UHGV virus genome: UHGV-1407433
Reading direction: 5' to 3' (one strand)
Length of the DNA: 25,186 bases
Source: a virus
Positions 1 through 24,050 of the stretch are shown here, one piece after another. The translations under genes were made by a program, and so were the position numbers. Below the pieces are notes generated by a model, which was not told where the DNA came from, did not search any database, and worked only from the letters and a program-made list of their open reading frames with translations. The stretch's first letter is position 1. Every line of letters starts with the position of its first letter.

Positions 1-530
1 GTAGAGCCGGTCACACACACCGCTGCGCCTAATTTTGCTCCCTCTCCCAAACCAAGTTTTGTGCGAGCGTCTGCGGCATTCGTTGCCCCGGTCCCGCCGT
101 CAGCGATTGCAAGCGCACCATTGCTCCCTTTCTGCGCAAGTTTACCGATGCCTGGGATGGTTACGGCGGTGCCGTTGATGGTAACTGTGATGCTTTGGTT
201 TGCTGAGGTGGTGGCGAACGTCTCCCACGCGCCAATATTCTCGTCGTACTCTTTGATGAGCTGTGACATGGCCTGCGCCAGGCCGTCGACTGAGATATTG
301 TCCGACACAAGGATTCCATACTTCTGGCCGCTCAGCGCCGGGGAAACTGCTGGCGTAACCGTCATTGACGTGGCGCTGTTCACGGATGAAATCTGAAACA
401 GCTGCACCGGGTTAGACATCACGATAATCGTCTGGCCAGCGCGGACCTGGCTGGCGGGAGCTGTCCAGTTTGTGCCGGAGCCGGTTGCGGTATTTCCGTT
501 AATAGAGATAGTTCCGGTGCTATAAATCAT
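1..530 (-). CDS. stf: Side tail fibre protein, N-terminal 176 codons (3' end runs off the window at coordinate 1)
   Basis: Not in the ORF track because the frame is still open at the window edge. ATG at 530..528 preceded by AGGAG (rev-comp of 533-537) at 6-nt spacing. Hand translation gives MIYSTGTISINGNTATGSGTNWTAPASQVRAGQTIIVMSNPVQLF...GGTGATNAADARTKLGLG, a motif typical of phage tail fibre N-terminal domains. Position downstream of J matches lambda order. Confidence 0.6.
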   Translation of the reverse strand, partial: MIYSTGTISINGNTATGSGTNWTAPASQVRAGQTIIVMSNPVQLFQISSVNSATSMTVTPAVSPALSGQKYGILVSDNISVDGLAQAMSQLIKEYDENIGAWETFATTSANQSITVTINGTAVTIPGIGKLAQKGSNGALAIADGGTGATNAADARTKLGLGEGAKLGAAVCVTGS

Positions 531-607
531 AACAACTCCTAAATTTAGACAACATGAAGCCCGGAGAGGTATATAACCCTCACCAGAAATAATTTCTGAA
601 TTGGTTT

Positions 608-910
608 TTAATACATGTTGGGCAACGCCAGTGTTGGCATAGCTATAGTTGTATCAAATGCCATTGACCACCCACCCAAATAATAATTGCCGACTACTTT
701 ATTCCTTTCTGCTCTGACATTCCCACCTGTCATTACAATTCCTTTATACCTAATATTTCCGTAACCACCAACGTGTCGACAGTTAGCCCCGGTATAAACA
801 ATCTGGCAAAATTCATCACCAATATTCAGGTTCGCATTGGCGATATTTATTGCCCCATCAAAAATGAATGGCTTCGTGCAAGTAAGAAGACGTTTGCGTT
901 GACGATTGGT
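608..910 (-). pseudogene. Start-less ORF remnant (100 open codons), Gly/Asn-rich, fibre or beta-helix-like C-terminal fragment; probably frameshifted continuation of the frame of ORF 847..1104
   Basis: Hand-translated frame open from stop at 913-911 to TAA at 610-608: TNRQRKRLLTCTKPFIFDGAINIANANLNIGDEFCQIVYTGANCRHVGGYGNIRYKGIVMTGGNVRAERNKVVGNYYLGGWSMAFDTTIAMPTLALPNMY. The only ATG/GTG/TTG start leaves 41 aa. The upstream ORF 847..1104 in another frame ends with a similar rung motif (ILVDGLNKPIVNANV vs IFDGAINIANANL). Confidence 0.35.
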
Positions 911-972
911 TTATTCAATCCATCAACTAAAATACCATGTAAACGAATTGCCATAACATTTCCTACTTTATT

Positions 973-1000
973 TGACTTACTCAACACAACAAGTATATTA
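973..1000 (+). promoter_or_regulatory. Candidate sigma70 promoter for the lipoprotein moron (-35 TTGACT 973-978; -10 TATATT 994-999, 15-bp spacer)
   Basis: Hexamers read by eye about 40 bp upstream of the SD of the 1037..1270 ORF. Spacer is short, so this is tentative. Confidence 0.25.
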
Positions 1001-1036
1001 AAATTGAACCTTGTCAACAACCTAAAAGGAGTCCCG

Positions 1037-1270
1037 ATAAAACGTTCTATTGTAATTTTGACATTAACATTTCTGTTATCTGCTTGCGGTACTGGTTTGG
1101 ACACAGGAAAGCCTAATTCCGGTGTTATTCCAAAACCTTTAGACCGTGACGGTAACGGTTCTTTAATCTATGACACTGAAAAACTGCCTTATACTGGTCA
1201 ATGGTGTCATGAACTCGATCACAATATGCGCCGCATCGGTAGCCCGTCCAACTGTGTAGCTAACTACTAA
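1037..1270 (+). CDS. Small putative lipoprotein (moron), about 77 aa, apparent non-ATG (ATA) initiation codon
   Basis: AAGGAG at 1026-1031, then 5 nt, then codon ATA at 1037-1039 in frame with KRSIVILTLTFLLSAC-GTGLDTGKPNSG... (basic n-region, hydrophobic h-region, lipobox LSAC). Opposite strand to the phage late operon, AT-rich, followed by a hairpin terminator. The ORF-track version 773..1270 starts at GTG and adds an implausible 88-aa extension. Confidence 0.4.
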   Translation: MKRSIVILTLTFLLSACGTGLDTGKPNSGVIPKPLDRDGNGSLIYDTEKLPYTGQWCHELDHNMRRIGSPSNCVANY

Positions 1271-1300
1271 AAAGAAAACCACGCGCGAAGCGGGGTTTTT
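1271..1300. terminator. Bidirectional intrinsic terminator between convergent J and the lipoprotein gene
   Basis: Imperfect GC-rich hairpin AAAACC-ACGC-GCGAA-GCG-GGGTTTT (about 1275-1299) with T-runs on both strands (plus: TTTTTGTTTATT; minus: TTTTCTTTTT), sitting between the stop at 1268-1270 (+) and the J stop at 1303-1305 (-). Confidence 0.55.
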
Positions 1301-1302
1301 GT

Positions 1303-4300
1303 TTATTCAGAGAATGAACCTGAACCGCGCGACACTATGACGGTCGGTGAGTTTATATACGCACCCATACCATTTTGAGCAGATACTCTAATTTTCACTG
1401 TAACCCACCTGCTATATACTGCTGATGAGTGCATCACAAGGCGCTCGGTGCCATCAACGGAAAGATTTTTCTCTGAACCGTTAATGTTTATTGTACACCC
1501 ACCAAAACCTTTTACGTTTGCCATAACGCAGATATGTCTGCTATGTGCTGCGTCAGATGTGTCATTGTATGTGATTGTTTTTTCGAGTACCCCATTATTT
1601 AATCTACTAACGTCAGATCCTGTGTACATGTTTGCAACATCACCGATAAACGAACTTGCTTCCACTGTTCCAGTAAATCTACCGTTGGTTGCATACACTG
1701 TACCTGTGAAAGATCCGTTGCTAGCGTATACAGTACCTCTGACAGTTACGTTGTTGAATTCAGCATCTCCAGCTTTATTCAACTTCCAGCCAGCAGAACC
1801 AGCAACATAATTGTTCGACTGGATAAAATTACCAATCTTTGCGTTGCTGATAGTGCCGTCCTGGATGAAACTGTCCCGGATGAATGTCTGCCCGTTCTGG
1901 ATCACAAACGGTAAAGCCACGCTATTTCCGGCTGCCGTGGTGACGGCGAAGCGATCAGCCAGGAAGATAACCTGCGACTGCATGCCGGATGGCGTATTCT
2001 CCACGCCGATACCCATCCCCGCGGCGTAATACTGCCCGTTGCTGGAGACACCAACCTTGATGTTGTACATCGCGATGAGGTCGCCGTTTACGTTCGCTAT
2101 AGCCTGAGCGTTGGTGGTGATGGCTGAGGTATGCCCGTTCACCGTAGCCGTAATGCCGTTTATCTGCGTGGCCGTTGCCTGCTGATAGTCGGAGAACGTC
2201 TGATTCAGGCTGTTTATGGATGCCTTGTTGCCGTTGACATCCGTCTGCAGGCTCAGCAGAGAGCGCGCCGTTGCCTCCTTCTCGTTAACGATTACCTCAT
2301 CAATACGATCCAGCTGCGCACTGTTACCGGCGACCGTCGCGGAAAGCCTTTTGCGTGTGGCCACCTGCGCCAGCCCGTTCTGGATAATGGCAATGGCTGA
2401 GTTCTTGACCCCGCCCGTCATGCCGTCCATAGACACGCTGATGCTGTCGATTCGCTGGCCCAGCGCGGTATCAGCCGTTGCGACGGTCTGCTCAAGATCT
2501 GATAGAGAGGAAGATACATCACCGACCGTGCTCGAAAGCTCATTAACACTGGTCTGAACCTGCCCAATGTCCTGCGCGTTTTTTGCGATTTCCTGCGCCT
2601 GGAGCTCAAGTTCATCGTTGGCCTGTTTGATGTCGTCAGCCATGCCAGCAATTTTTTCATTGCTGTCCACCGCGTTCTCGATCAGGTCTTTGAACGTATC
2701 GGAGTCTTTAATTTCCTCCAGAATCACATCTGTGATATCGGAAACATCGATGCTGGCCTGTCCTCGCACCCATTCTGTGTACCCTGATTCGTTGCCGCTG
2801 CGGTCCACCAGCTGCGCGCGGTACCAGAAAATCTGCCCAGCCTTAAGGCCCATCTGCTGATATTTGCGCTGCGGGTAAGGCACATCGGCCAGCAGCATGG
2901 CATCGTCTTCAGTACCGGTCAGGCTGTACTGAATTTCCGTCTTCAGCGTGTCGTCGGTATTCGCCTGGAATCCCCAGTTCAGCTCGATACCGAACACCAC
3001 GTTTTCAGAGGCGATAAAGCCAACCGGCTTCGGTGGATTGCCCACTTTACCCGTCAGCGTTTTCTCTTCTGAATAGCCCCATCCGGATGAAATTTCTGCG
3101 GCATTGATTGCGCGCACCCGCACCAGGTAGCGCCCGGCATAAATCCCCGGGACGTCGAATGACGTGGTGGAGGTGCGCGGCACGTTAACCCAGTTCCCGT
3201 CGTTGCGGCGCCATTGCGCTTCATAGGCGATAGCGTTCTGCGCCTGGTCCCAGCTCACGCGCATTGTTTCGACGCTGATATTTTGCTGAACCACGGAAAA
3301 CGAGCTGATCACGATATTCGCAGGCGGCGACTGGTTGCCCGGCGGGATCACGCTCACCGGCCGTTGGTCAATGATGGCTCCGGTATCGATACGGGCATAT
3401 TTATCCGGGTCGTGCCATGCGCCGGTAATCGAGAAAGTGCCATCATTGTTATCGGAAACGCTGACAACACGATACTGCTGCGCGTAAAGCTCGTCAGATT
3501 CAACCACCCAAACAGCTTCGGCCTGTGGCGTCTCACTGTATGCCGTGGTGACTGTGACTGATTCCCCGTTCACGGCCTGAATGGTCCTGCTCTGCGACGC
3601 TCCGGAAGGCAGGTTGAGAATAAGGCGATCACCTGGTGCTGCATCAGCTACGCGGTCAAGTTTGATAACGCGACCGTTAACGGCGCTGATGCGGCCGCCC
3701 ATAACCTTTCCGGAAAGCAGCTCGTCTGCCACGGCGATGATGTAGCCCGGCTGCGGAATGTTTCCGTCCAGCCCGACATCAAACGAAACAACGCGATCCT
3801 TGTTATTGGTGAGAATACCCCAGCGCCCCTTTCGGTTCGCCTCTGACTGCCTGGTGCAGCCGATGGCTGTCATTTCCAGCTGATTGAAGCCGTACCGCGC
3901 CACCAGCGCCTGCTCAAATACCGGCTCCATCGCGTCGGCATAAGCGTTACCCGGGTCTGACCATGAAACCAGCGCTGTGGTGTAGCGGCTTTTGGTGGTG
4001 CTGCCCGAATAGGTAAAGCGCCCATTAACCACGTTTGCACGCGTGTAGCTGTAATCCACATCGCGGGGCATATCCGCCAGCGCAACGATTTGATCGCCAC
4101 CCCAGTACGTCATGCCCCGGAATATCGCCGCAAAATCACGTAACACGGTATAGGCGTCATTCCTCTCCTGCACGTACACGTTACAGGTATAGCGAGGCTC
4201 AGTGCCGCTACCGCCTTTACCATCAGGAACCGGCTGATCGCAATATTGCGCGACCTGATAAAGCGTCCATTTATCAATATTGGCCGCCGTCAGGCGATTG

Positions 4301-5193
4301 CCCAGCCCAAAGCGGTCGCTCACCACCAGATCGTAAAAAATCCAGGCTGGATTATCCGTCCACGCCCACTTAAACGCCCCTGTCCATGTGCCGCTGTAGG
4401 TGCGGGTCTCCGGGTCATACGTATCCGGAACGCGGATTACACGCCCTCGCGGTTCGCAGGATATTTGCGGGATAGAGCCGTTAAACTGGCTTGAGTCGAA
4501 TTCGATGTACAGCAGCGCGGTATTTGGATAACGCAGTTTGGCGTCAATAACCTCTGTGTAGCTCTGCAGCGTCATCGTGTCGCCAATTTTCGCGCTGTTG
4601 GCATCCGCCGTAAGCTTACGCAGGCGCACCGTCCATGTACTGCCTGCCTGTGGTAAATCGATACGATGGCTGCGTTCGTAGCCGGAAGTTGTCTTGCCGG
4701 TTACGCTGGTATTAAGTACCGTCTGCCAGGTGCCGCCATCGGTCTGCAGATCAATAGCGTAGTTAATTGAATAGCCAACCAGATCGCCATCATCCTCCTG
4801 TTTAAAAAGCGATGGCCACTTGAGGCGCAGGCGAACGGCTGACAGTTGCGTGTTGGTAAAGGTATGTGTCCAGCCGGTGGTGCTTGACACTTCGGTGCCC
4901 ACGCTGATTTCATTTTCTGTGCCGGGGATACCCTGAATATATTTTTGTGCCTGAGTCCCCGGACGAAATTCCCACGCCACGCCACTGAAGTTTTGCGATC
5001 CGTCTGCATTCTCCAGTGGCGTGCCATCGAGATAGATATCCTTCGCCGTCAACTGCCCTGCAAATTCGCCCTCTCCCAGTGCAACAAGAATTTTGGCTTT
5101 CGCTACGGACTGGAGATCGTCTGGTTGTTCAGTCGGGGTGCGTGAACTGGAGCTGCCGCCCTTGCGGCCTCTAATCGGAGTAGATGTAGCCAT
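1303..5193 (-). CDS. J: Tail tip / host specificity protein J (central tail fibre), 1296 aa
   Basis: ATG at 5193..5191. Long protein at the lambda J position downstream of I. Conserved J-family core (e.g. ...NPAWIFYDLVVSDRFGLG..., ...GTEPRYTCNVYVQERNDAYTVLRDF...) with a divergent C-terminal receptor-binding region. Confidence 0.93.
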   Translation of the reverse strand: MATSTPIRGRKGGSSSSRTPTEQPDDLQSVAKAKILVALGEGEFAGQLTAKDIYLDGTPLENADGSQNFSGVAWEFRPGTQAQKYIQGIPGTENEISVGTEVSSTTGWTHTFTNTQLSAVRLRLKWPSLFKQEDDGDLVGYSINYAIDLQTDGGTWQTVLNTSVTGKTTSGYERSHRIDLPQAGSTWTVRLRKLTADANSAKIGDTMTLQSYTEVIDAKLRYPNTALLYIEFDSSQFNGSIPQISCEPRGRVIRVPDTYDPETRTYSGTWTGAFKWAWTDNPAWIFYDLVVSDRFGLGNRLTAANIDKWTLYQVAQYCDQPVPDGKGGSGTEPRYTCNVYVQERNDAYTVLRDFAAIFRGMTYWGGDQIVALADMPRDVDYSYTRANVVNGRFTYSGSTTKSRYTTALVSWSDPGNAYADAMEPVFEQALVARYGFNQLEMTAIGCTRQSEANRKGRWGILTNNKDRVVSFDVGLDGNIPQPGYIIAVADELLSGKVMGGRISAVNGRVIKLDRVADAAPGDRLILNLPSGASQSRTIQAVNGESVTVTTAYSETPQAEAVWVVESDELYAQQYRVVSVSDNNDGTFSITGAWHDPDKYARIDTGAIIDQRPVSVIPPGNQSPPANIVISSFSVVQQNISVETMRVSWDQAQNAIAYEAQWRRNDGNWVNVPRTSTTSFDVPGIYAGRYLVRVRAINAAEISSGWGYSEEKTLTGKVGNPPKPVGFIASENVVFGIELNWGFQANTDDTLKTEIQYSLTGTEDDAMLLADVPYPQRKYQQMGLKAGQIFWYRAQLVDRSGNESGYTEWVRGQASIDVSDITDVILEEIKDSDTFKDLIENAVDSNEKIAGMADDIKQANDELELQAQEIAKNAQDIGQVQTSVNELSSTVGDVSSSLSDLEQTVATADTALGQRIDSISVSMDGMTGGVKNSAIAIIQNGLAQVATRKRLSATVAGNSAQLDRIDEVIVNEKEATARSLLSLQTDVNGNKASINSLNQTFSDYQQATATQINGITATVNGHTSAITTNAQAIANVNGDLIAMYNIKVGVSSNGQYYAAGMGIGVENTPSGMQSQVIFLADRFAVTTAAGNSVALPFVIQNGQTFIRDSFIQDGTISNAKIGNFIQSNNYVAGSAGWKLNKAGDAEFNNVTVRGTVYASNGSFTGTVYATNGRFTGTVEASSFIGDVANMYTGSDVSRLNNGVLEKTITYNDTSDAAHSRHICVMANVKGFGGCTININGSEKNLSVDGTERLVMHSSAVYSRWVTVKIRVSAQNGMGAYINSPTVIVSRGSGSFSE

Positions 5194-19661: not shown

Positions 19662-19836
19662 GGCTTACTCCTGGCAAAAAACAGAGAAAGGAAACAATCA
19701 ACGGTAAACTTCCGTTTTCCTTGCTCAGCATTTCCTTTCTGGAGAGAGGACGTTTTTAACAAAAACAATGAGTAAACAAGAAGAAGAACGGAAATGGCAT
19801 AAACCAGAAAATTTTCATAAATAGCGAGAATCTGCG

Positions 19837-19848
19837 CGGACGCCGCCC
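19837..19848 (-). other. cos: cosN (cohesive-end site) within a lambda-like cosQ-cosN-cosB region (about 19662-19878)
   Basis: Minus strand reads ...GGGTCCTTTCCGGCGATCCGCCTTGTTACG | GGGCGGCGTCCG | CGCAGATTCTCGCTATTTATGAAAATTTTC..., closely matching the lambda right-end/left-end junction as I recall it (lambda cohesive end GGGCGGCGACCT). Confidence 0.8.
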
Positions 19849-19878
19849 CGTAACAAGGCGGATCGCCGGAAAGGACCC

Positions 19879-19903
19879 GCAAATGATAATGATTATCATT
19901 TGC
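19879..19903. promoter_or_regulatory. Perfect 12+1+12 palindrome with a 17/19 match to the Fur-box consensus
   Basis: GCAAATGATAAT-G-ATTATCATTTGC. The minus-strand reading GCAAATGATAATCATTATC matches GATAATGATAATCATTATC at 17 of 19 positions. Lies about 30 bp from cosN and about 50 bp downstream of the 155-aa gene. Confidence 0.4.
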
Positions 19904-19949
19904 TGGAATGCGACTTGATTCGCACCCATTTGGACGTCTAAACGTCCAT

Positions 19950-20417
19950 TCATCGCAACAGCGCTGACCATATCGTGCCACCTGGCCGAAGACTCTTCTT
20001 CAGTTCCTCGGACACAACATCTGAGATCGCTTTTACCATTTCAGGGGATAGCTTCACGCCGGTCTTAATTTCGGGACAGATGCCAACATTGATGGCATAG
20101 CCTTTTCGTGGGTCGTTCTCTATCCGGCCAAACTGAATATTTACAGAGCCACCAATATAACCACCAGCAGGAACACCAAAGCGCGTATTCACCAGGTGCT
20201 TAATGGCGAACTCCTGCCCTTCAGCGGTCAGGAAGGTGTAATAATTTTCCTTTTGATACTCCGTCGCGGTATGGCGTGTTTCAGCGAATCCCAGCTCTAG
20301 AAGCTCAGCAGCACCAGATTTGGCTGGCAGATCACCAGACTGAAGCGCGCCACGGAAAAACAGCGCATACAGAACATCCGTCGCCGCGCCGGACAACGTG
20401 ATAATTTTATGACCCAT
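19950..20417 (-). CDS. Hypothetical protein (155 aa), last gene before cos
   Basis: ATG at 20417..20415 with AAGGA SD at about 8 nt. No family recognised from sequence alone. Confidence 0.6.
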   Translation of the reverse strand: MGHKIITLSGAATDVLYALFFRGALQSGDLPAKSGAAELLELGFAETRHTATEYQKENYYTFLTAEGQEFAIKHLVNTRFGVPAGGYIGGSVNIQFGRIENDPRKGYAINVGICPEIKTGVKLSPEMVKAISDVVSEELKKSLRPGGTIWSALLR

Positions 20418-20527
20418 GATTTATTTCCTTTTAGGCGTGAGCCTGTCGCACGGCAAAGCCGCCGAAAGTTAACGGTTTGCCCAGGCTCACAGCTGAAAGA
20501 CTTTCTACGATGTGCGCGTGCGATGCG

Positions 20528-20553
20528 CATAAAAAAGCCGCGTGATGGCGGCT
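20528..20553 (-). terminator. Intrinsic terminator (minus strand)
   Basis: Stem AGCCGC / GCGGCT with 6-nt loop (20536-20553); on the minus strand it is followed by TTTTTTAT. The plus-strand version has only a weak T-tract. Confidence 0.6.
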
Positions 20554-20682
20554 ACTGTTTGAATATCAGGGTGTTGTTTCGTCTTAACCCTGGTTAATGT
20601 AGGCATTCAGCCCGTCGGTGGTGGGACACTGGCGCACTTAATAAAGAGTAATGGCTGATTACCTCAGAATAAGGAATCAAAA

Positions 20683-20943
20683 ATGTCAGAAGGTTTTGGT
20701 TTAAAAGAAAAGGTTGAGCAGTTAGAAAAAGAATTAGCCGTACAAAAAATAGCAAATCAGCTTGCTTTTGGAGCACTAATTAAAGCAGTTAATGAGCTGT
20801 ACCCGAACAAAGATTTATATGATGGGTTGACAAAATTTGTCCAGGAAAAACTTGATCCTGAACGTGTTAAAAACATCCCTAATCTTCACGAGGCCTTTCT
20901 AGAAGCTGCGAAAATACTGAGGACTGACGCATCTCCTGAATAA
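20683..20943 (+). CDS. Hypothetical small helical protein (86 aa), plus-strand moron
   Basis: ATG at 20683 with AAGGA SD 7 nt upstream. AT-rich, charged and helical-looking sequence (MSEGFGLKEKVEQLEKELAVQKIANQL...). Opposite orientation to every other phage gene here. Confidence 0.5.
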   Translation: MSEGFGLKEKVEQLEKELAVQKIANQLAFGALIKAVNELYPNKDLYDGLTKFVQEKLDPERVKNIPNLHEAFLEAAKILRTDASPE

Positions 20944-21037
20944 TTTTATCAACAAAGGCAGTTGTGTCCTCTTGCTTTTCATTCACAATGCATGTGACTG
21001 CCTTTTCTAAAGCTGTAATTCGTTCTTCAAGTGTCAT
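20879..21037 (-). CDS. Hypothetical small acidic protein (52 aa)
   Basis: ATG at 21037..21035 with AGGAG 5-6 nt upstream (the track ORF starts earlier at TTG). MTLEERITALEKAVTCIVNEKQEDTTAFVDKIIQEMRQ... Its 3' end overlaps the 3' end of the plus-strand gene by 65 nt. Confidence 0.45.
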   Translation of the reverse strand: MTLEERITALEKAVTCIVNEKQEDTTAFVDKIIQEMRQSSVFSQLLERPRED

Positions 21038-21090
21038 ACCCACTCCTGTCATTGGCTTCAAAATGATAAACCCCGCATTTGCAAGTCCTA

Positions 21091-21147
21091 TTTATACCCC
21101 GCAGGGGATAAAAACCATATTATCCGCTTGCGGGGATAACCATTATC
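21091..21147. repeat. Composite element of two GATAA-armed palindromes (TTTATACCCC-GCA-GGGGATAAAA and TTATCC-GCTTGC-GGGGATAA) joined by an AACCAT linker
   Basis: Seen directly. Related in sequence and arrangement to the reverse complement of the element at 22947-22997. Confidence 0.7.
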
Positions 21148-21177
21148 AAGCCCACCAGTAGATGGGCTTTGTAATGG

Positions 21178-21435
21178 CTACTTCGCTTTTGCTTCCGCTC
21201 GCTTACGCCGGCGCTCTTCTTTCCTCTCGGCTTTTGCCATGTCCATGAATGCCTGCATGATCGAGTTCCGCATCATGTAGCTAACAAAGTGATGATTGAC
21301 ACAGCCGTTGAGGCGCAGCTGCTCGCCAAACTCATCCACCGAGGCCAATGCTTCCATCATGCCCTTCTCGCCTTTCATGAACTCTGAGAAGTCGCGCCCC
21401 GCTCTGGAGGCGCATTCTATTATTCGGGTGCTCAT
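21178..21435 (-). CDS. Hypothetical protein (85 aa) with basic Lys/Arg/Glu-rich C-terminal tail, translationally coupled to the KilA-N gene
   Basis: ATG at 21435..21433, 2 nt after the TGA of the upstream gene (TGATCATG). C-terminus ...AKAERKEERRRKRAEAKAK. Confidence 0.55.
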   Translation of the reverse strand: MSTRIIECASRAGRDFSEFMKGEKGMMEALASVDEFGEQLRLNGCVNHHFVSYMMRNSIMQAFMDMAKAERKEERRRKRAEAKAK

Positions 21436-21437
21436 GA

Positions 21438-22166
21438 TCAGGCCGCCGCATAGAGCAATTTCATCTGCCCTTTCACCGGGAATGCCGACATGCAACGCGC
21501 TTCGAAATCACGATAATCAGAGCACCCATTGGCAATGCTGGTAACGGCAATGATCTGTCGCTCAACCAATGTCAGCGCGTCAGGTTTAAGGTGCTGATGG
21601 ATTTTGTCTCCCGCAGCCAGCCGTCTTTTAACCTCTGCATATACTTCTGGTGGTAATACCTGGCCATATACCCACTTGGCACTGATCATCCCAAATAGTG
21701 CGGGGCGACGACCTGGTCGATGACGGGGCAGCCCTGACATTTTGAACATCGCAGAATAAAACGGATCGCTAAACCTCTTTTCCCATGGCTGAGATTTATC
21801 CAGAAGGAAAATAGCCTTTATTCTTTCATCGTCGATATGATGAACGGAACCCTGAATGATTGCGTCAATTTGCTCATCACACCAGATCTCAAAATCTACA
21901 GAAAGCCATCGAGCAAATCTGACCGCCAGCTTTGGGTGAAGCCATGTTCCGCCGCCACGGTCTTTGCGAGCGCGGCTGGTTTTTACATATGTGATATTCC
22001 CATATCTACTCTTTAACGCCTCGATGTAACGGACAGTCTCAGGAAGCCTAAGCCACTGAGCCGGCTCCTTGTTGAACTTGTCAGCTGCCGCAGTCGCGTC
22101 AAACCAGCCATCGTCAGAAAAACGCATGGGATGGCCTTCGAAATCAATCGGGATGATATTGGACAT
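21438..22166 (-). CDS. KilA-N domain protein (antirepressor/Bro-like), 242 aa
   Basis: ATG at 22166..22164 with AAAGGTAA upstream (the track ORF starts earlier at GTG). The N-terminus MSNIIPIDFEGHPMRFSDDGWFDATAAADKFNKEPAQWLRLPETVRYIEAL...GGGTWLHPKLAVRFARWLSVDFEIWCDEQIDAI resembles the KilA-N DNA-binding domain of phage antirepressor/Bro proteins. Confidence 0.7.
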   Translation of the reverse strand: MSNIIPIDFEGHPMRFSDDGWFDATAAADKFNKEPAQWLRLPETVRYIEALKSRYGNITYVKTSRARKDRGGGTWLHPKLAVRFARWLSVDFEIWCDEQIDAIIQGSVHHIDDERIKAIFLLDKSQPWEKRFSDPFYSAMFKMSGLPRHRPGRRPALFGMISAKWVYGQVLPPEVYAEVKRRLAAGDKIHQHLKPDALTLVERQIIAVTSIANGCSDYRDFEARCMSAFPVKGQMKLLYAAA

Positions 22167-22316
22167 CGTATTTACCTTTTTGGTGATATGAGCCAGTTCT
22201 CGCAGACATGGACAGCCCAAGAGCGGCACGATGTAAGCCACCGTCCTGTCTCTGTCTCATATCCCGAAAAGCTCTTGGTTGATATGCGCACGAGAATGCG
22301 CGGTTTACTGCGGACA

Positions 22317-22343
22317 TAAAAAAGCCCCGCATAAGCGAGGCTA
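22317..22343 (-). terminator. Intrinsic terminator (minus strand) separating the 81/73-aa gene pair from the KilA-N unit
   Basis: On the minus strand: AGCCTCGC-TTAT-GCGGGGCT (fully paired with one G-U) followed by TTTTTTAT. Lies 22 nt downstream of the stop at 22365. Confidence 0.6.
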
Positions 22344-22364
22344 AATATCGAACAACTTCTTTTG

Positions 22365-22586
22365 TTAACTGCGCGTGAAGTTGTGGTGGATGAAGTCGTC
22401 AGAGCCTAACCGATGTGAGCCATAATGGGCTTCATAGCCCTCACCTAGTGAGGCTGCCTTAGTTTCGGCCACATCTTTGGTGGCGTAAACACCGACTAAA
22501 TGCCACGGGGCATTCCTTACAACCCCCCACCCCATAACCCAACCTATATTATCAAGGTCAGGCTTCAAGCCTTCTGCAACAAACAT
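22365..22586 (-). CDS. Hypothetical protein (73 aa)
   Basis: ATG at 22586..22584 with AAGGAG about 7 nt upstream (the track ORF starts earlier at TTG). MFVAEGLKPDLDNIGWVMGWGVVRNAPWHLVGVYATKD... Confidence 0.5.
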   Translation of the reverse strand: MFVAEGLKPDLDNIGWVMGWGVVRNAPWHLVGVYATKDVAETKAASLGEGYEAHYGSHRLGSDDFIHHNFTRS

Positions 22587-22588
22587 AT

Positions 22589-22615
22589 TTATCTCCTTTG
22601 GGTACCCGGAGATAA
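22589..22615. promoter_or_regulatory. Inverted repeat TTATCTCC-N11-GGAGATAA that includes the SD of the 73-aa gene
   Basis: Perfect 8-bp arms at 22589-22596 and 22608-22615 around a GGTACC-centred spacer. One arm contains the AAGGAG ribosome-binding site of the 22365..22586 gene. Confidence 0.4.
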
Positions 22616-22645
22616 TGCTAAGCAATTGAAGCTGCAAAATAAATA

Positions 22646-22891
22646 CTATTCAACAAGCTCTGCTGTAATTGTTAACCAGCTCAAATCAGGCCGATCATGC
22701 ATCACATGTACAGCTGATTCATCAACATCGACAGCGTAAATTTTAGTGAAGGGATGGGAAGCTTTACCGGATAAAGAATCCTTCACTATCACACTTTCAT
22801 TCTGAATAACCTGGAATGTGACGTTTGCGGCTCGAACAATACCCTCGTAGTGCTCTTCAAGGTGAGCAATTGTAACTTTAACTTTTTTCAT
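22646..22891 (-). CDS. Hypothetical small acidic protein (81 aa)
   Basis: ATG at 22891..22889 with AAGGAG 9 nt upstream (the track ORF starts earlier). MKKVKVTIAHLEEHYEGIVRAANVTFQVIQNESVIVKD... Confidence 0.55.
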   Translation of the reverse strand: MKKVKVTIAHLEEHYEGIVRAANVTFQVIQNESVIVKDSLSGKASHPFTKIYAVDVDESAVHVMHDRPDLSWLTITAELVE

Positions 22892-22946
22892 AGGCTGGCT
22901 CCTTGGCTGAATGGCAACAGGCATTAGGTGAGTGTCTGCTGTAACG

Positions 22947-22997
22947 CCTATCCCTTAGCGGGGATAATGGTTGCTTTATCCCTTGCTAGGGATAAAG
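22947..22997. repeat. Composite element of two GATAA-armed palindromes (TATCCC-TTAGC-GGGGATAA and TTTATCCC-TTGCTA-GGGATAAA) joined by an ATGGTT linker; inverted copy of the 21091-21147 element
   Basis: Seen directly, immediately downstream of the Rz stop. Its reverse complement aligns with the 21091-21147 element (palindrome, AACCAT linker, palindrome). Confidence 0.7.
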
Positions 22998-22998
22998 A

Positions 22999-23514
22999 CT
23001 ATTGACGCTCGCTCTCTATTTGACGAATTCCAGCGAAATTGTTATTGCCCTTTTCAATCACGGCCAGCAGCGGCTTAATCCAGAGTACAGCCTGGCAGTA
23101 CGTTATTGAGCCGGCGGCAGCGGTACTATCATCGGCTGCGTCAGGTCCGTCGGTATCGGCGTGCATTGCGCTGGAACGTAAACGGTACGCGTATTCGAGC
23201 AGCCCACCAGCAATGTCAGCAGGAACAGGCAGATCACAGGTTTTTTCACGGCGGAGTATCTCCCGGTATTCAATTACGGTTTCTTCGGTGCTGGTGTCGA
23301 TCAGGGAGTTAAGCCTGTTGGCATGTTCTGCAACCTGATTGAATCGATTGAAGTTGAATGCCTGGGTGGCGATCACCTGCCCCTGCATAGAGTTGTCACT
23401 TCGCAGAACGTCGTTATCGCTCTGTAGGCTACTGGCGTCGGAGCAGCTCTTAACGAGAGCGACGGAAAGGCCAGCAATAACGACAACGCCGATAAGACCC
23501 GGATTAATTTTCAT
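22999..23514 (-). CDS. Rz: i-spanin Rz (N-terminal transmembrane anchor, periplasmic coiled-coil)
   Basis: ATG at 23514..23512 overlapping the endolysin stop (ATGA). [21 protein letters not shown]... N-terminal TMD then a charged helical region. Third gene of the lysis cassette, containing a +1-frame lipoprotein ORF. Confidence 0.8.
   Translation of the reverse strand: MKINPGLIGVVVIAGLSVALVKSCSDASSLQSDNDVLRSDNSMQGQVIATQAFNFNRFNQVAEHANRLNSLIDTSTEETVIEYREILRREKTCDLPVPADIAGGLLEYAYRLRSSAMHADTDGPDAADDSTAAAGSITYCQAVLWIKPLLAVIEKGNNNFAGIRQIESERQ
23103..23249 (-). CDS. Rz1: o-spanin Rz1, embedded in the +1 frame of Rz, GTG start (48 aa)
   Basis: Hand translation of the +1 frame: (GTG)KKPVICLFLLTLLVGC-SNTRTVYVPAQCTPIPTDLTQPMIVPLPPAQ*. 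Lipobox LVGC, Pro-rich mature part, GGGAG 10 nt upstream of the GTG. Absent from the ORF track (under 60 aa). An alternative TTG start at 23273 would give 56 aa. Confidence 0.65.
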   Translation of the reverse strand: MKKPVICLFLLTLLVGCSNTRTVYVPAQCTPIPTDLTQPMIVPLPPAQ

Positions 23515-24050
23515 TGGTCCAGCCCCCAGCACGCCAGCGCGCTTTCCTGGTCCCGTCGCTCAACCTGGCCATAGCAGCCATTCTTCTGGCCTTTGGTTAG
23601 ACGACAATCACGGCCACCGTCTTTAATCCACCAGCGGATTGCCTCGCATGCACCGATGCGGTCACCTGCGTTGATGCGCTTATAGAAGGTCGATGGGAAG
23701 CATTTACCGGGGCCGATGTTATACGGGCAGAAGGATGCGATACCCACCTTCTGAGGCTCTGTCAGAGGCACTTTGATATTGCGATCAACCCAGGCTAATG
23801 CCTTATCGCGTTCAATAGCGTTAACCTTCCGGCATTGTTCCTCAGTGGCCGTCATGCCTTTAACAACACGCCTGCCATCGATAACGGTCACGCCGTGACA
23901 TAAAGACCAGACCCCACCCGGATCAACAACGGCCACCAGCGCATTGCCTTCTTTCTCGCTGATGAATTGGTCAAAAATGAGTGGAGCAGAAGCCCCTGAC
24001 GCGATTAGCGCCAGCACTGCTACGCTGAGCTTTGCTTTGTTCGACATCAT
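23511..24050 (-). CDS. R: SAR endolysin (T4-lysozyme-like fold with N-terminal signal-anchor-release domain), phage 21 R-like
   Basis: ATG at 24050..24048 overlapping the holin stop. N-terminal weakly hydrophobic Ala/Gly/Ser-rich segment [21 protein letters not shown] followed by E...D...T lysozyme signature ([24 protein letters not shown]). Confidence 0.85.

What the first reader, a model, noticed from the sequence alone, without database searches (positions are those of the whole stretch)
19950..22891. AT-rich accessory island between the lysis cassette and cos, made of autonomous small-gene units
Between Rz/Rz1 and cos the window carries seven ORFs with no recognisable virion or lysis role: 81 aa, 73 aa, a KilA-N domain protein (242 aa) coupled to an 85-aa basic-tailed protein, a 52-aa acidic protein, an opposite-strand 86-aa helical protein, and a 155-aa protein. 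The region is visibly more AT-rich than the structural genes and is cut into units by three good minus-strand intrinsic terminators (22317-22343, 20528-20553, and the hairpins after Rz). This is the layout of moron/accessory cargo that can be expressed from the prophage. Several products are small and acidic, the size and charge class of known anti-defence proteins. KilA-N proteins are usually antirepressor or Bro-like regulators. I cannot assign function from sequence alone.
Basis: partly seen in the sequence, partly recalled or inferred. Interest (0 to 1): 0.5.

Follow-up and report, generated by a model that had tools for sequence, protein, structure and literature searches.

The report
Swappable cargo genes before phage cos
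The stretch between the lysis genes and cos of this E. coli prophage is a stack of four swappable cargo cassettes already seen in other lambda-like phages, and one of them carries a widely shared, apparently undescribed structured RNA leader in front of its backwards-pointing gene.

Summary
Seven ORFs, low GC (47.4% against 53-55% in the structural genes) and two clean late-strand intrinsic terminators are present. The "hairpins after Rz" are structured but have no U-tract.

The island is the known variable slot between lysis and cos in lambdoid phages. It is a mosaic of four cassettes, each at least 98% identical to mEp237, HK97 (gp73 KilA-N + p61) or mEp043/213, joined at conserved hairpins and terminators. 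No ORF matches a known defence or anti-defence family.

The cassette at 20528-21050 is an HK97/HK022-type "moron + reverse moron" pair. A 52-aa late-strand gene overlaps the 3' end of the opposite-strand 86-aa gene. A roughly 130-nt conserved leader (20554-20682) precedes that 86-aa gene.

The leader occurs in more than 120 viral contigs, across many Enterobacterales genera, at several late-operon sites, and ahead of at least 17 unrelated cargo families. It shows strong covariation for a + strand pseudoknotted fold and has no Rfam match.

The layout mirrors the Tai/Ati "noncontiguous operon" at the same locus in phi80, without sequence homology. The island itself is ordinary. The leader is the noteworthy part.

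The parts
22949..23002 (-). Twin AT-rich hairpins directly after Rz; a boundary element, not a canonical terminator
   Evidence: A second copy lies at 21091-21139 (75-84% identity). The fold is -25.8 kcal/mol with z -4.9 and has no U-tract.
22646..22891 (-). 81-aa acidic protein (mEp237 gp60); all-beta sandwich
22365..22586 (-). 73-aa acidic protein (mEp237 gp61)
   Evidence: PHROG 4280, E 4e-38. Homologues at 42-45% identity occur in Pseudomonas phages. No domain or PDB-sequence match.
22315..22342 (-). Intrinsic terminator T1; the junction between mEp237-like and HK97-like DNA
   Evidence: 8-bp stem with 6 G-C pairs plus a T6 run. HK97 homology ends at 22342, and mEp237 homology resumes at 22315.
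21438..22166 (-). KilA-N + P63C protein (242 aa), equivalent to HK97 gp73
   Evidence: Pfam KilA-N E 1.5e-22 and P63C E 4.5e-11, both above gathering score. The HK97-like block 21141-22342 is 98.7% identical.
21178..21435 (-). 85-aa protein with a basic tail (HK97p61), coupled to the KilA-N gene
   Evidence: Its ATG lies 2 nt after the KilA-N stop. PHROG 875, E 2e-53. It always travels with the KilA-N gene.
21060..21176 (.). Strongly structured three-hairpin boundary region; its last 36 nt (21141-21176) form a widely conserved junction sequence
   Evidence: -53.8 kcal/mol, z -5.7. HK97-like and mEp043-like homologies overlap at 21141-21176. That stretch is 92-97% conserved across more than 100 lambdoid and P22-like phage records, for example downstream of Sf6 gene 65.
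20879..21037 (-). 52-aa acidic late-strand gene; the 'moron' partner, converging on and overlapping the 86-aa gene by 65 nt
   Evidence: 54% identical (E 6e-17) to a 47-aa ORF in the same overlap in L225. PHROG 28630. 60 of 74 distinct cassettes carry such an overlapping late-strand ORF.
20683..20943 (+). 86-aa acidic helical protein; the 'reverse moron' cargo
   Evidence: A small family of 8 clusters among 5.8 billion proteins. A 70%-identical copy sits between tail genes M and L in L225. Profile comparison gives remote links to some other cargo families.
20554..20682 (+). Conserved structured leader of the reverse moron: a candidate -10 element near 20595-20600, then helices P2/P3/P4, then the Shine-Dalgarno sequence
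   Evidence: 78-86% identical to the DNA upstream of HK022 gp23, ES18 gp25, HK97 gp23, HK633 gp65 and SPN3UB gp29, whose proteins are unrelated. Found in more than 120 viral contigs. Covariation is strong. No Rfam match. The window holds a single copy, E 6.6e-37.
20528..20553 (-). Intrinsic terminator T2, which forms the 5' edge of the cassette
   Evidence: 6-bp stem plus a T6 run. The stem shows compensatory changes between phages (GCCGC/GCGGC against GCCACC/GGTGGC). mEp237 homology breaks here.
19950..20417 (-). 155-aa protein of the phi80 orf66 / N15 gp59 family: conserved 81-aa N-terminal domain, variable middle, and a C-terminal PGGxIW motif
   Evidence: 88% identical to phi80 PHI80_66 over residues 1-81. 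Family architecture is shown. A profile against PDB sequences gives only a weak MarR-type hit, E 0.15. The AF2 model was unusable (pLDDT 48).
19885..19903 (-). Fur-box-like palindrome at the island's cos-side edge, where lambda homology begins
   Evidence: 17 of 19 matches to GATAATGATAATCATTATC, with 0 expected by chance. It is conserved in the right end of lambda next to cosQ GGGTCCT.

Best explanation
The island is the variable cargo slot between lysis and cos of a lambdoid prophage. It holds four independently exchangeable cassettes: (1) the 81-aa and 73-aa genes with terminator T1; (2) the KilA-N/P63C gene with its coupled 85-aa gene; (3) the late-strand 52-aa gene, the opposite-strand 86-aa gene, its leader and terminator T2; (4) the 155-aa orf66-like gene next to cos.

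Shown: the cassettes are joined at conserved hairpin or terminator sequences, and the same cassettes occur in other combinations and positions in other phages.

Inferred: these boundary sequences act as recombination joints. During lytic growth, Q-modified RNA polymerase from pR' reads through T1 and T2 on its way to Nu1/A, so all late-strand ORFs are made as late-operon passengers. Without Q, the terminators insulate them.

Only cassette 3 shows evidence of autonomous expression. Shown: the 86-aa gene sits behind a portable, conserved leader of about 130 nt that carries an invariant TAnnnT element and a covarying + strand fold. The fold is hairpin P3 enclosed by helix P2, whose 3' strand lies in the loop of hairpin P4 just upstream of the Shine-Dalgarno sequence.

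Inferred, by analogy with phi80 Tai/Ati and lambda bor: the 86-aa protein is made from the repressed prophage. Late antisense transcription damps it during lytic growth while the overlapping 52-aa partner is produced, the logic of a 'noncontiguous operon'. The protein functions remain unknown. A prophage-benefit role such as exclusion or defence, with a late-strand antidote, is the most likely guess.
For: Mosaic structure. mEp237 matches 19662-20542 and 22315-23600 and lacks everything between. mEp043/213 match 19841-21176. HK97 matches 21141-22342. All are 98.6-99.3% identical. The full combination occurs in 1 of 5426 E. coli genomes. Related prophages carry other cargo in the same slot.

Boundary elements. 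These are T1/T2, the 36-nt junction conserved in more than 100 phages and the duplicated twin hairpins.

Cassette 3. Its leader is homologous to those of the HK97/HK022 'moron' and 'reverse moron' and the ES18 'possible moron' elements, while the proteins are unrelated. The whole two-gene cassette sits at the M-L tail-gene junction in another phage. Leader copies lie next to homologues of L (26), J (10), H (4) or the 155-aa gene (7), always antisense to the late genes. Downstream cargo falls into 17 BLAST-unrelated families of more than 40 aa.

RNA fold. 93.2% of cells are paired, against 30-45% in slid controls. There are 51 double-change cells against 13.5 +/- 3.1 in shuffles (0 of 500 reach the observed value). 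P3 has 5 of 8 compensatory pairs and is 98.9% paired. Pairing is better on the + strand than on the - strand (P3 98.9% against 88.5%; P4 93.3% against 85.7%). T42, A43 and T47 are invariant in 87 sequences.

Analogy. In phi80 the order is rha, taiEcA (reverse strand, expressed in the lysogen, reduced when Q is expressed), atiEcA (late strand), orf66, cos. The window's 155-aa gene is the orf66 homologue.
Against: There are no expression data for any of these genes. The candidate promoter in the leader is weak: its -35 is poor with a 15-nt spacer, and its weight-matrix score is only in the top 0.2% of window positions. The strict scan calls no promoter there. The window's own leader folds no better than shuffles in isolation (z -1.2). 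P2 never varies, so it has no covariation support, and its 3' strand lay inside one of the two search anchors. The window's proteins show no sequence similarity to TaiEcA or AtiEcA, and phi80 lacks the leader. The weight-matrix scan also finds candidate promoters upstream of the 73-aa, 52-aa and 155-aa genes, so the other units might be autonomous too.
Confidence: 0.6

Rival explanations
1. One reading: the small acidic proteins (81, 73, 52 and 86 aa) are anti-defence proteins such as DNA mimics or inhibitors of restriction or CRISPR, carried as autonomous morons.
For: Their size and charge fit (pI 4.7-5.9). The cargo proteins behind the leader are small, fast-diverging and drawn from many unrelated families, as expected for arms-race genes.
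Against: None of them matches anything in PADLOC, Pfam, NCBIfam or PDB sequences, and their PHROGs are all of unknown function. The 81-aa protein is a beta sandwich, not an elongated acidic DNA mimic. Late-operon position and late timing are poor for countering defences that act at DNA entry. The only characterised system at this locus is a defence gene with a self-directed antidote.
Confidence: 0.12
2. The late-strand genes are virion-associated or assembly-associated accessories. The 81-aa beta sandwich and the orf66-like 155-aa protein would then be decoration proteins, or decoys mimicking the central tail fibre J. They would be made late simply because they sit in the late operon, and the island would have no role in the lysogen.
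Confidence: 0.18
3. The conserved 130-nt element is not a + strand leader. It would instead be a DNA-level recombination or boundary sequence, or the 3' end of a late-strand transcript: an sRNA that ends at T2 and is antisense to the ribosome-binding site of the 86-aa gene.
For: It abuts a late-strand terminator, like a typical sRNA 3' end. Homology stops exactly at the cargo start codon, as expected for a recombination joint. Watson-Crick covariation is symmetrical between strands.
Against: G-U pairs are the commonest state at 63:81 (61 of 87) and frequent at 97:118 (27 of 87). Read on the - strand these become C-A mismatches, and P3 pairing drops from 98.9% to 88.5%. The alifold energy is -19.6 kcal/mol on the + strand against -11.7 on the - strand. 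Compensatory changes are not expected of a pure recombination site.
Confidence: 0.12
4. The ORFs are decaying, non-functional prophage remnants.
For: The functions are unknown, and RefSeq omits the 52-aa ORF.
Against: Every ORF is intact and conserved in viable, plaque-forming phages (mEp237, mEp043/213, HK97). Diverged homologues keep the reading frames.
Confidence: 0.03

Closest known systems
HK97 gp22/gp23 and HK022 gp22/gp23 ('moron' and 'reverse moron'; Juhala et al. 2000, cited from my own knowledge and from the GenBank annotation), plus ES18 gp24/gp25
   Same: The terminator and leader DNA is homologous (74-86% identity). The layout is the same: a small late-strand ORF converging on an opposite-strand ORF, with the leader abutting a late-strand terminator, inserted in a late operon.
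   Different: Those cassettes sit between tail genes (I-J or M-L), whereas this one sits between lysis and cos. The encoded proteins have no detectable similarity. I found no description of the shared leader as an RNA element.
phi80 taiEcA/atiEcA 'noncontiguous operon' (He et al. 2024, PMC11364771)
   Same: The locus is the same, between Rz and the packaging module. Both have a Bro/Rha/KilA-type regulator upstream, an opposite-strand gene embedded in the Q-dependent late operon, an adjacent small late-strand gene, and an orf66-family gene next to cos.
   Different: There is no sequence similarity to TaiEcA (204 aa) or AtiEcA (76 aa). phi80 has no copy of the leader. In the window the small late-strand partner lies on the other side of the reverse gene. 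No functional data exist for the window's genes.
Lambda bor
   Same: It is an opposite-strand gene immediately after Rz in the late region. It is known to be expressed from the prophage.
   Different: Bor is an outer-membrane lipoprotein with no similarity to these genes and no copy of the leader. Lambda's slot otherwise holds different ORFs.
HK97 gp73 (KilA-N protein) with HK97p61
   Same: The block 21141-22342 is 98.7% identical in DNA to HK97, with the same two-gene unit after Rz.
   Different: In HK97 the unit is followed by the gp74 HNH endonuclease and cos. Here it is followed by cassettes 3 and 4.
Prophage anti-sRNAs and sRNAs at the pR' moron site (AgvB, AsxR, STnc100/PasD)
   Same: They are non-coding RNA elements carried in moron sites of lambdoid late regions.
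   Different: They lie between Q and the lysis genes, are 51-60 nt trans-acting Hfq-binding RNAs, and have Rfam models. None of those models hits this region except a sub-threshold match to the STnc100 model over terminator T1 (22312-22381; E 0.5, 18.8 bits against a gathering score of 47).

Membership tests
Moron (as defined for HK97/HK022 and summarised in PMC3594210) | Extra DNA that is absent from otherwise collinear relatives | tested here: met
   mEp237 lacks 20543-22314. mEp043 lacks cassettes 1 and 2. HK97 lacks cassettes 1, 3 and 4.
Moron (as defined for HK97/HK022 and summarised in PMC3594210) | Base composition different from the neighbouring genes | tested here: inconclusive
   Met for the 86-aa (37% GC), 52-aa (40%) and 81-aa (41%) genes. 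Not met for the KilA-N, 85-aa, 73-aa and 155-aa genes (50-54%).
Moron (as defined for HK97/HK022 and summarised in PMC3594210) | Its own factor-independent terminator | tested here: met
   T1 follows the 81-aa and 73-aa genes. T2 follows cassette 3. No canonical terminator follows the 85-aa or 155-aa gene.
Moron (as defined for HK97/HK022 and summarised in PMC3594210) | Its own sigma-70 promoter | tested here: inconclusive
   The strict scan finds none upstream of any unit. The weight-matrix scan gives candidates upstream of the 73-aa, 52-aa and 155-aa genes, and none for the KilA-N or 81-aa genes. The leader carries an invariant TAnnnT.
Moron (as defined for HK97/HK022 and summarised in PMC3594210) | Expression from the repressed prophage | not testable with these tools
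   This needs RNA-seq, TSS mapping or reporter fusions in the lysogen.
HK97/HK022-type reverse-moron cassette | Homologous terminator and leader DNA upstream of an ORF antisense to the late genes | tested here: met
   The profile built from 74 copies hits 20554-20682 with E 6.6e-37. BLAST identities to HK022, ES18, HK97, HK633 and SPN3UB are 74-87%.
HK97/HK022-type reverse-moron cassette | A convergent late-strand ORF overlapping the 3' end of the reverse ORF | tested here: met
   The 52-aa ORF overlaps by 65 nt. 60 of 74 distinct cassettes have such an overlap. The ORF is conserved in L225.
Tai/Ati tail-assembly-inhibition system (phi80) | Sequence homology to TaiEcA or AtiEcA | tested here: not met
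   BLASTP of all seven proteins against PHI80_63 and PHI80_64 gives nothing better than E 0.004 over a short, low-identity stretch.
Tai/Ati tail-assembly-inhibition system (phi80) | A reverse-oriented gene inside the Q-dependent late operon upstream of the packaging genes, with an adjacent late-strand partner | tested here: met
   Window coordinates, compared with the phi80 annotation and the paper.
Tai/Ati tail-assembly-inhibition system (phi80) | Blocks tail assembly of other phages, and the partner neutralises it | not testable with these tools
   This needs phage challenge assays, electron microscopy and two-hybrid assays.
KilA-N domain proteins (Pfam PF04383) | A match above the Pfam gathering score | tested here: met
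   79.9 bits against a cut-off of 23.8. P63C scores 43.6 against 26.1.
Known defence or anti-defence protein families | A profile match in PADLOC, Pfam, NCBIfam or PHROGs | tested here: not met
   PADLOC gives only two weak partial hits (PDC-S22 at E 9e-5 over 30 residues; QatB at E 0.02). Nothing appears elsewhere, and every PHROG match is of unknown function.
Any Rfam 15 RNA family (for the leader) | A covariance-model match | tested here: not met
   No hit in 20528-20690 at E <= 1. The only matches are sub-threshold and driven by terminator T1.
Intrinsic terminator (the 'hairpins after Rz') | A G+C-rich stem followed by a U-tract | tested here: not met
   The stems are A/T-rich, no T-run follows, and the scan does not call them.

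The most novel reading that the evidence does not exclude
The 130-nt leader would be a new, portable cis-regulatory RNA of Enterobacterales temperate phages. It would consist of a promoter and a pseudoknotted 5' UTR that lets any small cargo gene be expressed from the repressed prophage against the direction of the late operon. It would also couple shut-off of that gene to Q-dependent antisense transcription, while the overlapping late-strand partner is made as its antidote. On this reading, the many fast-diverging cargo families behind the leader, including this 86-aa/52-aa pair, are an untapped set of prophage defence or exclusion genes paired with self-immunity genes. The J-like late-strand proteins at the locus (the 81-aa protein and the orf66 family) might be decoys against defences that target tail assembly.
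Probability: 0.3. Interest if true: 0.65.

Novelty: new member of a known kind. Interest (0 to 1): 0.42.

Why it matters
The island itself adds little. It is a new combination of modules already sequenced in HK97 and the mEp phages, sitting in a cargo slot that has been recognised since lambda bor and the first description of morons.

The useful result is the leader.
- It marks a whole class of "reverse moron" cassettes in more than 120 viral contigs.
- It occurs across many Enterobacterales genera.
- It sits at several late-operon positions.
- It precedes at least 17 unrelated cargo families.

The leader therefore gives a simple sequence handle for harvesting genes likely to be expressed from the prophage, together with their late-strand partners. 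It also supplies a concrete, covariation-supported RNA structure whose role can be tested directly. Finally, it links the old moron concept to the recent "noncontiguous operon" model of prophage defence and self-immunity (phi80 Tai/Ati; S. aureus Tha).

Tried and rejected
- **AF2 of the 155-aa protein.** A 20-sequence alignment gave pLDDT 48, which is unusable, so I ran no fold search on it.
- **Sequence searches of the ORFs.** Single-sequence searches of PDB gave nothing for the 155-aa, KilA-N, 81-aa and 73-aa proteins. NCBIfam and PADLOC gave nothing useful.
- **Exhaustive HMMER search with the 155-aa protein.** It found 100 representative clusters. The only Pfam-annotated hits were two giant repeat proteins that are almost certainly spurious. 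A profile of the N-terminal domain gave only a MarR-type hit at E 0.15.
- **Known prophage sRNAs.** I considered AgvB, AsxR, STnc100 and PasD. They lie at the pR'-proximal site, and their Rfam models do not match the leader.
- **Helix P1 (columns 14-19 with 34-39).** Rejected as an RNA helix. It is only 80% paired, its inner pairs are broken in about 40% of sequences, and it is lost altogether in a divergent subgroup. It may belong to the promoter DNA.
- **A conserved mini-ORF (MADYL...) in the leader.** Rejected, because its ATG is mutated in several copies and the third codon positions are as conserved as the others.
- **Whether all cargo proteins form one diverged family.** Profile comparison links only a few helical families (probability 60-83%). 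The aspartyl-protease-like and DUF1883 families carry distinct Pfam domains, and others show no link.
- **The 17-mer scan of species genomes.** About half the hits are chance matches, as expected from the database size. Only 54 of 108 loci were confirmed by the profile.
- **The ORF at 19756-19971 (mEp237 gp63).** It crosses cos, so I set it aside as unlikely to be a gene.
- **Literature.** Full-text searches for 'reverse moron', for KilA-N together with P63C, and for the leader's core sequences found nothing. The search for HK97 gp73 returned only unrelated papers.

Full report
**Source and layout.** The window matches a prophage of E. coli O68:H12 strain 97.3 at 100% identity. The late genes run on the minus strand in this order:
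- a DNA methyltransferase;
- holin, lysozyme and Rz/Rz1 (Rz ends at 22999);
- the region in question;
- cos, then Nu1 (Pfam E 1.6e-95) and terminase A.

The cos-side edge of the region is well defined. Homology to the right end of lambda begins around 19906. It covers a Fur-box-like palindrome, cosQ (GGGTCCT) and cosN.

**Check of the observation.** All seven ORFs exist with the stated lengths and strands. RefSeq annotates six of them and omits the 52-aa ORF.
- GC content is 47.4%, against 53-55% for the structural genes. This places it at the 0.4th percentile of windows of this size.
- Three genes account for most of the deficit: the 86-aa gene (37%), the 52-aa gene (40%) and the 81-aa gene (41%).
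- Two late-strand intrinsic terminators are clear: 22342-22323 and 20553-20536, each followed by a T6 run.
- The hairpins after Rz (22949-23002) fold strongly (z -4.9) but have no U-tract, so they are not canonical terminators.
- A second, even more structured intergenic block lies at 21060-21180 (z -5.7).
- Every ORF has evidence of being a real gene:
  - KilA-N and P63C domains for the 242-aa protein;
  - conserved families for the 155-aa and 81-aa proteins;
  - homologues at 42-45% identity in Pseudomonas phages for the 73-aa protein;
  - PHROG and HK97 conservation for the 85-aa protein;
  - a 70%-identical homologue for the 86-aa protein and a 54%-identical one for the 52-aa protein, in another phage and in the same 65-nt overlap.

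**Mosaic anatomy.** BLAST against three sequenced phages resolves the island into modules.
- mEp237 matches 19662-20542 and 22315-23600 (99.3% and 98.7%). It therefore has the 81-aa and 73-aa genes and the terminator running straight into the 155-aa gene.
- mEp043/213 match 19841-21176.
- HK97 (gp73 KilA-N plus p61) matches 21141-22342.

The joints fall on structured non-coding DNA.
- T1 and T2 share the sequence GGCTTTTTTATG.
- The HK97-like and mEp043-like segments overlap in a 36-nt hairpin (21141-21176). That hairpin is 92-97% conserved in more than 100 lambdoid and P22-like phage records, including downstream of Sf6 gene 65.
- The twin hairpin after Rz recurs at 21091-21139.

The full combination occurs in only one of 5426 complete E. 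coli genomes, and a second genome shares 78% of it. Other prophages fill the same slot with different genes:
- a Clp-fold serine proteinase;
- a head-spike-fibre domain protein;
- longer variants of the 155-aa family.

This is therefore the known lambdoid cargo slot between lysis and cos. Lambda keeps bor and two small ORFs there.

**Protein functions.** Apart from KilA-N/P63C, nothing matches Pfam, NCBIfam, PADLOC or PDB sequences, and all PHROG matches are of unknown function.
- **155-aa protein.** It belongs to the phi80 orf66 / N15 gp59 family.
  - Its 81-residue N-terminal domain is nearly invariant and 88% identical to PHI80_66.
  - Its middle region is highly variable and full of insertions and deletions. 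In some members this region contains the J tail-tip domain PF09327.
  - Its C-terminus carries a conserved PGGxIW motif.
  - A profile of the N-terminal domain gives only a weak MarR-type hit (E 0.15).
  - The AF2 model was unusable.

**The reverse-moron cassette and its leader.** The DNA between T2 and the start codon of the + strand 86-aa gene (20554-20682) is 78-86% identical to the DNA upstream of HK022 gp23, ES18 gp25, HK97 gp23, HK633 gp65 and SPN3UB gp29. HK022 annotates gp23 as a moron gene product, ES18 gp25 is a 'possible moron', and HK97 gp23 is annotated 'reverse moron product'. The downstream proteins show no similarity, and homology stops at the start codon.

Distribution of the leader:
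- The element occurs in 199 of 5426 E. coli genomes and is never annotated there.
- It occurs in species genomes of Pantoea, Enterobacter, Citrobacter, Erwinia, Pectobacterium, Kluyvera, Buttiauxella and others.
- In Xenorhabdus and Photorhabdus only the last roughly 40 nt are present.
- Copies lie next to homologues of the tail genes L, J or H, or next to the 155-aa gene, and always antisense to the late genes.
- The ORFs behind the leader fall into 17 BLAST-unrelated families of more than 40 aa. Most are acidic helical proteins of 70-95 aa, but there are also an aspartyl-protease-like protein and a DUF1883 protein.
- 60 of 74 distinct cassettes have a late-strand ORF overlapping the 3' end of the cargo gene.
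- The whole 86-aa/52-aa cassette, from terminator to the partner's start codon, sits between tail genes M and L in another phage.

**Is the leader an RNA?** Rfam 15 has no match. The core sequences appear in no paper in the library. On 87 sequences sharing less than 93% identity (alignment A7), I tested a structure of three helices:
- hairpin P3 (columns 61-68 with 76-83);
- enclosing helix P2 (56-60 with 105-109);
- hairpin P4 (97-101 with 114-118), whose loop supplies the 3' strand of P2, making a pseudoknot.

The results were as follows.
- 93.2% of cells form standard pairs, against 30-45% when the partners are slid by one to three columns.
- There are 51 cells with changes on both sides, against 13.5 +/- 3.1 in shuffles (0 of 500 shuffles reach the observed value).
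- P3 has 5 of 8 pairs with compensatory changes and is 98.9% paired.
- G-U is the commonest state at one P3 pair and is frequent in P4. Pairing is therefore better on the + strand (P3 98.9% against 88.5%; P4 93.3% against 85.7%).
- The alifold energy also favours the + strand.
- P2 is invariant, so it has no covariation support.
- A fourth candidate helix, P1, is not supported.
- Upstream of P2, positions T42, A43 and T47 are invariant and G39/G40 nearly so. This is the pattern of a -10 hexamer with partial extended -10 character, and it would place the transcript start at the foot of P2.
- That promoter is an inference. It is weak by weight-matrix score, and the strict scan does not call it.
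- The window's own leader folds into P2 and P3, but its energy is not exceptional (z -1.2).

**How it most likely works.**

*Shown:*
- The island has a cassette structure with defined joints.
- The cassette moves between sites in different phages.
- The leader is conserved and covaries.
- The reverse gene is antisense to the late genes and overlaps its late-strand partner.

*Established knowledge:* Q-modified polymerase from pR' must cross this region to express Nu1, A and the head and tail genes. T1 and T2 are therefore read through in lytic growth, and all late-strand ORFs are made late.

*Inferred:*
- In the lysogen the terminators insulate the region.
- The leader then drives the 86-aa gene.
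- On induction, convergent late transcription damps the 86-aa gene while the 52-aa partner is produced.

This logic was demonstrated at the same locus in phi80. There taiEcA (reverse strand) is expressed in the lysogen and reduced when Q is expressed. It blocks tail assembly of other phages. The adjacent late-strand atiEcA prevents self-harm, and an orf66 gene sits next to cos. S. aureus prophages use the same 'noncontiguous operon' arrangement for Tha. The window's proteins are not homologous to Tai or Ati. This is therefore a 'works like' argument, not membership.

**Verdict.** The region is accessory, mosaic and moron-type. Autonomy is supported only for the opposite-strand unit. One of the three claimed terminators is not a terminator. 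The anti-defence suggestion has no support. The island is a new combination of known modules. The conserved, structured reverse-moron leader is, as far as these searches show, undescribed, and it is the part worth following up.

Noticed in passing
window 19885-19903 (- strand): A Fur-box-like palindrome, GCAAATGATAATCATTATC, matches the classic 19-bp consensus at 17 of 19 positions, with none expected by chance. It lies between the stop of the 155-aa gene and cosQ and is conserved in the right end of lambda. phi80 annotates ORF x171.8 (now AtiEcA) as 'putative Fur-regulated protein', and NCBI applies that name to relatives of the 155-aa protein.
   Followed up: partly
window 19756-19971 (- strand): A 71-aa ORF, annotated as gp63 in mEp237 and matching phrog_35601, runs across cosQ/cosN. 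It would be split in virion DNA, so it is probably not a gene.
   Followed up: partly
L008 5262-6107; L006 4757-5659 and 2450-3145: Related E. coli prophages carry different cargo in the same slot. Instead of the 81-aa/73-aa unit they have an 'SDH family Clp fold serine proteinase'. One also has a protein with a GTA head-spike-fibre domain (NF048003, E 9e-12) next to the terminase genes.
   Followed up: partly
L225 3255-3479 (+): The phage that carries the 86-aa/47-aa cassette between tail genes M and L has a second opposite-strand 74-aa ORF between M and the tape-measure gene. Reverse morons can therefore be stacked in one tail operon.
   Followed up: no
L229-L302 (Xenorhabdus and Photorhabdus genomes): Only the last roughly 40 nt of the leader (the P4 hairpin GGAGGGAUGGCUGAUUACCUC plus the Shine-Dalgarno sequence) recur in Xenorhabdus and Photorhabdus. 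P4 may therefore be a separable module.
   Followed up: no
window 22646-22891 against L224 3353-4081: The 81-aa beta-sandwich protein aligns weakly to the variable middle of phi80 orf66 (25% identity over 64 residues, pairwise E 0.001). Its fold resembles a lambda J domain. Some orf66-family members carry the J tail-tip domain PF09327.
   Followed up: partly
window 501-1300: A markedly AT-rich stretch (GC 38-43%) lies downstream of the J gene (1303-5193). It contains only short ORFs on both strands and was not examined.
   Followed up: no
window 22653-22625 and 21149-21119 (- strand): These are the two best sigma-70-like matches in the island by a crude weight matrix. TTGAAT-17-TTCAAT lies at the end of the 81-aa gene, just upstream of the 73-aa gene. 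TTGATA-19-GATAAT lies in the boundary hairpins upstream of the 52-aa gene. Both score in the top 0.01% of window positions and neither is verified.
   Followed up: no
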